A DNA stretch of 64,000 nt, from the NCBI GenBank assembly GCA_965262715.1, contig OZ253553.1:1088001-1152000 (forward strand), given 5' to 3'. The notes below the pieces were generated by a model that made no database searches, was not told where the DNA came from, and was given only the letters and a program-made list of their open reading frames with translations. The position numbers were made by a program, and so were the translations under genes. This document shows, one piece after another, positions 15,535 through 16,417 of the stretch (the stretch's first letter is position 1; each line of letters opens with the position of its first letter). This DNA is from Bdellovibrionales bacterium (GTDB taxonomy: Bacteria; Bdellovibrionota; Bdellovibrionia; Bdellovibrionales; JAUICD01).

Positions 15535-15611
15535 GGTTCGGTAGCTCAATTGGATAGAGCACCTGCCTTCTAAGCAGGGGGTTCCAGGTTCAAGTCCTGG
15601 TCGAACCGCCA
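15535..15611 (+). tRNA. tRNA-Arg(UCU)
   Basis: Cloverleaf: acceptor GGTTCGG/TCGAACC, anticodon arm CCTGC-CTTCTAA-GCAGG, T arm CCAGG-TTCAAGT-CCTGG, G73-CCA. Confidence 0.95.
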
Positions 15612-16417
15612 TCTTCTTGTTTCCCTAACATGTTATAAAAAAACGAAAAGATCCTCCTTACTAAAATGCATCAGGCTTTCTAGGCTTTGCCCTATTTGCC
15701 AAACGGCGTAAGCCAGTTTGGGGGCAATGCCAGAAAGTCACCAGAGGTGAGATGCATTTTAGTGAAATAAGCCAATTGGATAGAGCACCTGCCTTCTAAG
15801 CAGGGGGCTTGCAGGTTCAAGTCCTGGTCGAACCGCCATCTTCTTGTTTCCCTAACATGTTATAAAAAAACGAAAAGATCCTCCTTACTAAAATGCATCA
15901 GGCTTTCTAGGCTTTGCCCTATTTGCCAAACGGCGTAAGCCAGTTTGGGGGCAATGCCAGAAAGTCACCAGAGGTGAGATGCATTTTAGTGAAATAAGCC
16001 AATTGGATAGAGCATCTGCCTTCTAAGCAGGAGGTTCCAGGTTCAAGTCCTGGTCGAACCGCCATCTATGAGAAAAAAATTTCCCTAACATGTTATAAAA
16101 AAACGAAAAGATCCTCCTTACTCAAAATAAACAGATTTTCTAGGCAATGACCTATTTGCTGAGGGCATTAGCCGTCAGGGTCAGTGCCAGAAAACAGCCA
16201 GAGGCTGGTTTATTTTGAGTGAAATACAATCGGCTTGCAGGTTCAAGTCCTGGTCGAACCGCCATCTATGTTAGAAAAAAATTTCCCTAACATGTTATAA
16301 AAAAACGAGAGGTATCTCCTTACTCAAAATAAACGGATTTTCTAGGTAATGACCTAATTGCTGACGGTAAAAGCCGTCAGGGTCATTACCAGAAAGTGGC
16401 CAGAGGCCATCTCAAAA
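15612..16417 (+). repeat. Tandem array of tRNA-Arg 3' fragments alternating with structured-element variants
   Basis: CCA ends at 15611, 15838, 16064 and 16264 (periods 227, 226, 200); 5'-truncated tRNA copies at 15773-15838, 16000-16064 and 16232-16264; elements at 15658-15765, 15885-15992, 16118-16222 and 16320-16409. Confidence 0.9.

What the first reader, a model, noticed from the sequence alone, without database searches (positions are those of the whole stretch)
15535..16417. tRNA-Arg-anchored array: tRNA 3' fragments alternate with variant structured cassettes
Seen: the intact tRNA is followed by four units of [leader CCCTAACATGTTATAAAAAAACG + ~105-nt structured element]. The units are separated by three 5'-truncated tRNA copies, each ending in CCA (periods 227, 226, 200). 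Cassettes 1 and 2 are identical; cassettes 3 and 4 differ in sequence but keep the fold. tRNA-proximal units are the least eroded, as in a polarised array. Established: duplicated tRNA 3' ends are the signature of site-specific integration, and tRNA-linked repeats are known in E. coli. Inference: this is either serial integration of a ~200-bp non-autonomous element at a tRNA att site, or a polycistronic RNA whose tRNA-like spacers let tRNA-processing nucleases release separate small RNAs. No integrase or RT gene is present in this window.
Basis: partly seen in the sequence, partly recalled or inferred. Interest (0 to 1): 0.85.

Follow-up and report, generated by a model that had tools for sequence, protein, structure and literature searches.

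The report
Folded repeat strands old gene ends
The tRNA fragments and folded cassettes are real, but the cassette is one of hundreds of copies of a genus-specific 150-base DNA repeat that likely arrives from related strains together with a fresh gene end and pushes the old gene end downstream, at tRNA, 5S rRNA and protein genes alike.

Summary
The array is real (periods 227/226/200; junction contigs in short-read data). It is not tRNA-specific. The cassette is a ~150-nt, strongly covarying three-way-junction repeat (E): 462 profile hits in this genome, 1,315 in a congener, none elsewhere in the sampled order except on a contaminant contig. The same layout (gene end, E, copy of gene end, E) lies behind 5S rRNA, rpsQ, rpmJ, coxB and others. 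The new junction sits 0–9 nt past E's 3' end and the copied host DNA is nearly always upstream (38 vs 3; 47 vs 10). E's 3' end is also flush with mature tRNA ends far above chance (8/34, 6/37). Stranded protein-gene ends differ from the working ends by silent or in-frame changes and never by a premature stop, so they look like former working alleles. Best reading (0.5): single-stranded DNA with a defined E 3' end is integrated by homology upstream and an illegitimate joint downstream, then amplified and reshuffled by recombination. No integrase, RT, RAYT, IS110 or Ssn explains it; the enzyme is unidentified. This scan has noted the same layout with unrelated hairpins in other genomes.

The parts
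13671..15473 (+). lepA-like gene upstream (context)
   Evidence: ORF; named by eye from its translation
15535..15611 (+). intact tRNA-Arg(TCT), the working gene
   Evidence: ARAGORN; Rfam
15620..15772 (+). E copy 1: 45-nt leader, 105-nt three-way junction, tail ending TAAGC
15773..15838 (+). stranded tRNA end 1 (nt 13-77, one extra base in the variable loop, shared with the junction of unit 4)
15847..15999 (+). E copy 2, identical to copy 1
16000..16064 (+). stranded tRNA end 2 (nt 13-77; C28T gives a T.G wobble, G45A is in the variable loop: both tolerable in a working tRNA)
   Evidence: T28 also in G002-G004
16080..16231 (+). E copy 3: local leader, but a body 95% like a distant copy and only 63% like copy 1
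16238..16264 (+). stranded tRNA end 3 (nt 51-77), second independent junction
16282..16409 (+). E copy 4, 3'-truncated; central part 97% like a distant copy
2837..2942 (+). another partial E in the same window
63836..63931 (+). another partial E in the same window
10685..11683 (+). Rpn (PD-(D/E)XK_2) nuclease gene 3.9 kb upstream; weak candidate enzyme, not shown to belong
   Evidence: PF12784; association fails in G000

Best explanation
The cassette is a dispersed 150-nt folded DNA repeat (E), and the array likely grew when single-stranded DNA carrying 'tRNA end + E' from a related strain was anchored by homology upstream and joined by E's fixed 3' end inside the resident tRNA gene, stranding the old tRNA end downstream. 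Shown: E is dispersed, its 3' junction is fixed, copied host DNA lies upstream, stranded protein-gene ends look like working alleles, bodies of E are swapped under a locus-specific leader. Inferred: (1) the plus strand folds as ssDNA and something (an unidentified structure-specific nuclease, or exonuclease arrest plus a binding protein) defines a 3' end 0-9 nt past the closing stem; (2) the DNA enters by natural transformation; (3) RecA pairs the upstream flank, and the displaced resident strand is cut and joined to the E end with 0-4 nt of microhomology, preferentially at edges of folded DNA (tRNA acceptor stem, D-arm, T-arm, E's own CCAGAGG loop); (4) once two units exist, ordinary recombination amplifies them (copies 1 and 2) and swaps alleles and bodies (copies 3 and 4). 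The tRNA fragments are relics, not processing signals.
For: Dispersal: 462 hits/219 clusters in G000, 1,315 hits in G001. Polarity: of 100 distinct spacers between same-strand copies in G000, 38 match upstream host DNA, 3 downstream, 59 neither; G001 47/10/186 of 243; paralogous loci make these not fully independent. Junction gap after GTGA(A/G)A is 0-7 nt in all but one of the rows (13 nt at unit 4 here). Among 217 near-identical dispersed pairs in G001, shared sequence ends within 8 nt of the 3' end in 129, while upstream sharing runs from 0 to 120 nt (68 within 4 nt). Same array behind 5S rRNA, rpsQ, rpmJ, coxB, pilB-like, grxD-like genes. Alleles: 11 G000 loci given, 9 gave rows, 12 of 12 codon differences silent or stop-to-stop (about 10 independent; 0.21-0.31 expected by random decay, P about 1e-7 to 1e-5); the rpsQ relic on L007 carries three amino-acid changes that equal G000's working allele. 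tRNA ends: 8/34 (0.25 expected) and 6/37 (0.82 expected) versus 11/1380 and 39/1151 protein-gene ends; E's 5' end shows no such excess (1 and 0). The 27-nt leader occurs only at this locus while bodies 3 and 4 match distant copies. A related strain in run X6 appears to have tRNA + one E (two contigs). Fold covaries (27 of 42 pairs with double changes, 0/500 shuffles; 923 unique copies) with invariant unpaired bases and GNNA loops that include GGTA/GATA/GACA (that such loops suit DNA rather than RNA is recalled). ComEC-like and DprA genes present, RecJ not found in G000 or G001; RecJ loss raises HFIR 20-fold in A. baylyi (PMC3240628, passages). G001 shows recent spread (35 of 719 copies >=99.5% identical to a dispersed copy) with no RT or Y1 transposase detectable.
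Against: The unbiased scan is less clean: G000 13 relics among 277 ends gave 7 silent and 5 missense changes, G001 2 rows among 881 ends gave 4 silent and 7 missense (mostly a different C-terminus); none a premature stop. At G001 L146 three units with two alleles share one identical junction, so alleles can be swapped after a single joining event; cis-duplication plus later recombination explains that equally well. Allele capture is not shown at this tRNA: the X6 strain's listed differences fall in the leader, not the tRNA. No enzyme found; Rpn association holds in G001 (14/16) but not G000 (2/19). E's 3' flanks are not generally richer in hairpins (17% vs 12-19% in controls), so the tRNA preference is not explained by structure alone, and selection against cutting into single-copy tRNAs inflates it. 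ComEC and RecJ loss are shared with G003/G004, which lack E on their own contigs. HFIR normally deletes rather than duplicates recipient DNA, and is rare. Jumps to new, non-homologous sites need a further step.
Confidence: 0.5

Rival explanations
1. Cis slip-back: a nick or stall just 3' of E on the plus strand (during replication or in an R-loop) lets the end re-prime 25-90 nt upstream, duplicating 'gene end + E' in place; allele differences come later from ordinary homologous exchange between strains.
For: Explains upstream-only polarity, fixed junction and identical units; arrays sit behind highly transcribed genes in sense; one junction shared by two alleles at L146; BIME amplification model is geometrically similar (PMC3333891, passages).
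Against: Two different junctions, each with a different allele or E variant, at one locus (tRNA-Arg, rpmJ, G000:1004615); no mirror-image events from the equally stable minus-strand fold among 25 5'-truncated copies; no clear leading/lagging bias (E overall 105 vs 91); does not itself disperse E.
Confidence: 0.27
2. RNA-templated: read-through transcripts ending just past E's stem are reverse-transcribed (target priming or template jumping onto tRNA ends) by an RT acting in trans.
For: Joints flush with mature CCA and 5' ends of tRNAs; variable 22-33-nt target duplications, small deletions and extra 5' bases at empty-site comparisons; G000 has a group II intron RT and a retron RT.
Against: G001 has three times more copies and recent spread but no RT by Pfam or by a lax custom profile; RNA does not explain foreign alleles; GNYA loops are common.
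Confidence: 0.1
3. One reading: serial site-specific integration of a ~200-bp element at a tRNA att site.
For: tRNA 3' ends are repeated; unit content differs between strains.
Against: Two crossover positions; same arrays at non-tRNA genes; hundreds of copies elsewhere; only Xer-like tyrosine recombinases, with no E beside them in a shared arrangement.
Confidence: 0.04
4. One reading: a polycistronic RNA whose tRNA-like spacers release separate small RNAs.
For: Sense orientation behind a tRNA, strong covarying fold.
Against: Fragments lack the 5' strand of the acceptor stem; array not conserved at the orthologous tRNA in 4 of 4 relatives; E lies in both orientations at tRNAs.
Confidence: 0.04

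Closest known systems
Homology-facilitated illegitimate recombination and displacement arrays (V. cholerae T6SS immunity arrays, Rhs orphans; PMC5361080, PMC3240628, passages read)
   Same: Upstream homology anchor, illegitimate far joint with microhomology, old sequence pushed downstream, competent host, RecJ absent.
   Different: Here the far joint is fixed by a dedicated non-coding folded repeat, recurs at many unrelated genes, and duplicates rather than deletes the resident gene end.
Insertion with long target duplication (restriction-modification genes; PMC2853133, passages read)
   Same: Long, variable duplications (some overlapping gene 3' ends or tRNAs), no transposase, mostly naturally competent species.
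   Different: Cargo is a 150-nt non-coding repeat, events are serial and polar, and the two copies differ as alleles.
REP/BIME/REPIN with TnpA(REP)/RAYT (PMC3333891, passages read)
   Same: Hundreds of extragenic folded repeats, mosaic tandem arrays, ssDNA fold, proposed nick-extend-rejoin amplification and capture of flanks.
   Different: No RAYT; larger three-way junction with a separate conserved leader; no GTAG tag.
Ssn nucleases with NTS/dRS3 repeats (PMC11893778, passages and one section read)
   Same: Oriented hairpin repeat in hundreds of copies, strand-specific, near pilin/surface genes, tied to transforming ssDNA.
   Different: No small GIY-YIG gene (only UvrC-sized ORFs); SsnA cuts upstream of its hairpin, whereas E's fixed end is downstream.
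E. coli tRNA-linked repeats (rtT, TRIP; recalled, no relevant paper found)
   Same: Repeats containing tRNA 3' ends behind a tRNA gene.
   Different: E is not confined to tRNA or rRNA loci.

Membership tests
tRNA-targeting integrative element | integrase encoded in or near the element | tested here: not met
   none in window; two Xer-like tyrosine recombinases elsewhere; serine recombinases not searched genome-wide
tRNA-targeting integrative element | constant att core and confinement to the att site | tested here: not met
   joints at tRNA nt 13 and 51; 219 clusters genome-wide
REP/BIME/RAYT | Y1 HUH transposase flanked by the repeats | tested here: not met
   one IS200-like TnpA in G000 with no E on its locus, none in G001
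REP/BIME/RAYT | abundant extragenic palindromic repeats in mosaic arrays | tested here: met
MITE | terminal inverted repeats and uniform short target duplication | tested here: not met
   ends are unlike each other; most solo copies have no duplication, others 22-33 nt
Retroelement / group II intron derivative | RT in the genomes where it spreads; intron domains | tested here: not met
   no RT in G001; no Rfam match for E
Ssn/NTS | small single-domain GIY-YIG gene flanked by the repeat | tested here: not met
   only 612-653-aa ORFs hit PF01541 in 5 of 5 genomes
Integron attC array | IntI integrase | tested here: not met
   TIGR02249 scores 54-55 bits against a cut-off of 265
IS110 bridge-RNA element | IS110 recombinase | tested here: not met
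   PF02371 absent from G000 and G001
HFIR displacement array | displaced sequence is a former working allele | tested here: met
   at protein genes; inconclusive at this tRNA
HFIR displacement array | microhomology at the illegitimate joint | tested here: inconclusive
   0-4 nt, often AG or CA, read by eye; no null model
HFIR displacement array | competence genes in the host | tested here: met
   DprA and ComEC-like; also in relatives without E
HFIR displacement array | RecA dependence and need for donor DNA | not testable with these tools
   needs experiment
tRNA-spaced polycistronic RNA | spacers keep an acceptor stem for RNase P/Z | tested here: not met
   fragments start at nt 13 or 51
tRNA-spaced polycistronic RNA | discrete RNAs ending at the junctions | not testable with these tools
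   needs RNA data

The most novel reading that the evidence does not exclude
E is a protein-less 'homing' DNA: an undescribed ssDNA-cutting or end-joining factor gives it a fixed 3' end, it rides natural transformation, and it installs itself together with a replacement gene end at conserved, highly expressed genes, leaving a time-ordered record of earlier alleles. With the unrelated hairpins this scan noted in archaea and other bacteria, that would be a general, unnamed class of transformation-borne mobile elements.
Probability: 0.25. Interest if true: 0.85.

Novelty: new variant of a known kind. Interest (0 to 1): 0.6.

Why it matters
How REP-like repeats spread without a transposase, and how long target duplications arise, are open questions. 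This family has hundreds to over a thousand copies, fixed-end junctions and allele relics, so it gives a measurable signature and a direct assay. It also warns that duplicated tRNA 3' ends are not proof of integrase action.

Tried and rejected
Rfam: no family for E at gathering or E<=10 beyond tRNA. Co-occurrence of E with four-helix-bundle (PF05635) genes across genomes: first seemed perfect, withdrawn when the G004 contig C11 proved a contaminant (its rplN is 96% like G000; G004's own is on C14; G004 contigs C1 and C4 with E were not tested) and G004, G021, G025 have 11-19 such genes without E; local adjacency does hold in both genomes (13/13, 6/11). Rpn as mobiliser: 14/16 in G001, 2/19 in G000; ankyrin and pilin genes are also enriched in G001; G022 has 14 Rpn hits and its own unrelated hairpin repeats but no E in the 187 kb fetched. 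RT, Y1, IS110, tyrosine recombinase, GIY-YIG: see membership tests. Long-range duplications are not E-bounded (3 of 147). dif-like reading of the leader: unconvincing. E not found in viral contigs (7 pattern hits, none a real E), metagenome contigs (0), plasmids or phages; exact-pattern scans miss diverged copies. Orthologous genes with E nearby in both genomes are at chance level (56 vs 53 expected). No RNA holder listed. Paper searches: searches gave 0 papers; others gave none relevant; I found no paper on this family or on hairpin-anchored gene-end displacement in these ten searches of an open-access library, which is not a full literature search. No supplements were read.

Full report
Observation. 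The window holds lepA, an intact tRNA-Arg(TCT) (15535-15611) and four cassettes separated by three tRNA 3' fragments, with CCA ends 227, 226 and 200 nt apart. Cassettes 1 and 2 are identical, 3 is 63% alike, 4 is truncated before its closing stem. Folding is far beyond shuffles as RNA and as DNA, on both strands. Rfam knows no such RNA. Short-read contigs cross the cassette-fragment junction in 3 of 4 runs at about twice the flank depth; none spans the array.

The cassette is a dispersed repeat. A profile built from genome BLAST hits finds 462 copies in 219 clusters in the 2.94-Mb genome. I call it E: about 150 nt, from TTTCCYTAACAT through a three-way junction to AGTGA(A/G)A plus a short tail. 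It matched 3 of 41 genomes searched: G000, the congener G001 (1,315 hits) and G004, where the tested contig is a contaminant from a G000-like organism. A named Bdellovibrionales record carries it (L042-L045). Over 923 unique copies the stems covary heavily while an unpaired A, a T.G pair and the CCAGAGG loop are nearly invariant; loops are GNNA, including many GGTA, GATA and GACA. On 14 copies, 27 of 42 pairs show double changes and no shuffle reaches the score. That GNNA and ANA loops favour DNA over RNA is recalled, not tested. A second repeat (F, 112 hits) often precedes E.

The array type is general. Behind 5S rRNA lies the same layout with the last 20 nt of 5S repeated; likewise behind rpsQ, rpmJ, coxB, a pilB-like gene, pilins and others (gene names by eye from translations). 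The new junction is at E's 3' end, and the repeated host DNA lies upstream: 38 upstream, 3 downstream, 59 neither of 100 distinct spacers in G000; 47, 10 and 186 of 243 in G001, where most copied pieces are other repeats. Most solitary copies have no target duplication; empty-site comparisons show a sharp 3' side, extra 5' bases, and small deletions or 22-33-nt duplications (middle of output cut). Near-identical dispersed pairs in G001 confirm a sharp 3' and a variable 5' boundary, and show E nested into older E copies.

The tRNA link is real but different. E's 3' end lies within 12 nt of a mature tRNA end at 8 of 34 genes in G000 (0.25 expected if uniform in intergenic DNA) and 6 of 37 in G001 (0.82 expected), in sense before the 5' end or antisense against CCA; protein-gene ends give 11 of 1,380 and 39 of 1,151; E's 5' end gives 1 and 0. 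Selection against damage to single-copy tRNAs may inflate this, and 3' flanks in general are not hairpin-rich. The orthologous tRNA-Arg in G001-G004 has no E-tRNA array; G004 has short tRNA-end repeats without E. A related strain in run X6 seems to have one E only.

The relics look like alleles. At 11 G000 loci given to the script, 9 gave rows; all 12 codon differences between working and stranded gene ends were silent or stop-to-stop (about 10 independent), against 21-31% expected from decay. The rpsQ relic on L007 differs by two silent and three conservative changes, the latter equal to G000's working allele. An unselected scan was less clean: 7 silent and 5 missense in 13 G000 relics among 277 ends, 4 silent and 7 missense in 2 G001 rows among 881 ends, but no premature stop. 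At G001 L146 two alleles share one junction, so alleles are also exchanged after joining. At this tRNA locus, relic 2 has two tolerable changes, relic 1 borrows bases from the unit-4 junction, the 27-nt leader is unique to the locus, and bodies 3 and 4 match distant copies at 95% and 97%; a donor allele was not found.

No known mobiliser. G001 shows recent spread (35 of 719 copies at least 99.5% identical to a dispersed copy; G000 0 of 289 at 98%) yet has no RT, Y1 transposase or IS110, and only Xer-like recombinases and a UvrC-sized GIY-YIG ORF. G000's group II intron RT, retron RT and single TnpA therefore cannot be the general cause, unless G001 has unassembled replicons. Rpn genes are E-flanked in G001 only; four-helix-bundle genes in both, but they are not nucleases as far as I recall and abound in genomes without E. 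Both genomes have DprA and a ComEC-like gene and no detectable RecJ.

Mechanism. Best supported (0.5): ssDNA with a defined E 3' end, taken up from kin, is anchored by upstream homology and joined illegitimately inside the resident gene, stranding the old end; recombination then amplifies and mixes units. Shown are the geometry and the allele-like relics; inferred are uptake, the end-defining factor and RecA. Rivals: cis slip-back with later allele exchange (0.27), RT-based copying (0.10), att-site integration (0.04), tRNA-spaced RNA operon (0.04).

Comparison. It works like HFIR displacement arrays (PMC5361080 and PMC3240628, passages) and insertion with long target duplication (PMC2853133, passages), and resembles BIMEs (PMC3333891, passages) and NTS repeats (PMC11893778, passages and section 8), but fails the defining enzyme test for RAYT, Ssn, integron, IS110, retroelement and integrase families. 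For Rpn I read the abstract and the first part of the Discussion of PMC5350276; for SPDIR only the abstract of 10.1101/2023.11.22.568220. Earlier notes of this scan describe E itself in this genome and the same gene-end layout with unrelated hairpins in other genomes; I reached the allele reading before seeing the latter, did not check their data, and do not count them as evidence. Verdict: real, not tRNA-specific, a new variant of a known kind with an unexplained fixed-end joining step; interest 0.6.

Noticed in passing
G000:C1:1808203-1809276: Four-unit E array behind the single 5S rRNA gene, each unit starting with the last ~20 nt of 5S; a 33-nt target duplication brackets it.
   Followed up: yes
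G000:C1 genome-wide, e.g. 421626-421810: Second repeat family F (~190-nt long hairpin, 112 hits), followed by E on the same strand in 44 cases through a purine-rich linker.
   Followed up: partly
G000:C1:2198524-2198955: Four degenerate tandem copies of tRNA-Trp (89-nt period, altered anticodon loop) before the intact gene, with no E.
   Followed up: no
G000, G001, G004, G021, G025: Four-helix-bundle (PF05635) genes in 11-19 copies per genome, flanked by short GGGATC/CCGGCA-type repeats, often as divergent pairs; a small mobile unit with no known enzyme.
   Followed up: partly
G004:C11 (L007): Contig is a contaminant from a G000-like organism (rplN 96% identical); G004's own rplN is on C14.
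   Followed up: yes
G000:C1:2843532-2850600 and G004:C11: 3' part of rplN repeated after ~6.6 kb of cargo; two such repeats on the contaminant contig.
   Followed up: partly
L002 (G000:C1:2649241-2652813): Retron St85-type RT fused to its effector domain (590 aa) beside tRNA-Asp, with E flush against the tRNA's CCA.
   Followed up: partly
L001, L003: Group II intron with a 465-aa RT, plus an internally deleted copy.
   Followed up: partly
G022 (L196-L202): Two unrelated 120-150-nt hairpin repeat families and 14 Rpn hits in another family of the order.
   Followed up: partly
G003, G004: No tyrosine recombinase (no XerCD-like gene) and no RecJ found in these 1.6-Mb genomes; no small SRP RNA match in G000/G001.
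   Followed up: no
L040 (G004:C13): tRNA-Arg(TCT) followed by two decayed copies of its own 3' half without E.
   Followed up: no
G000 arrays: Unit lengths cluster near 200 and 230 nt and tail repeats near 26 nt, as if set by a ruler; not tested statistically.
   Followed up: no
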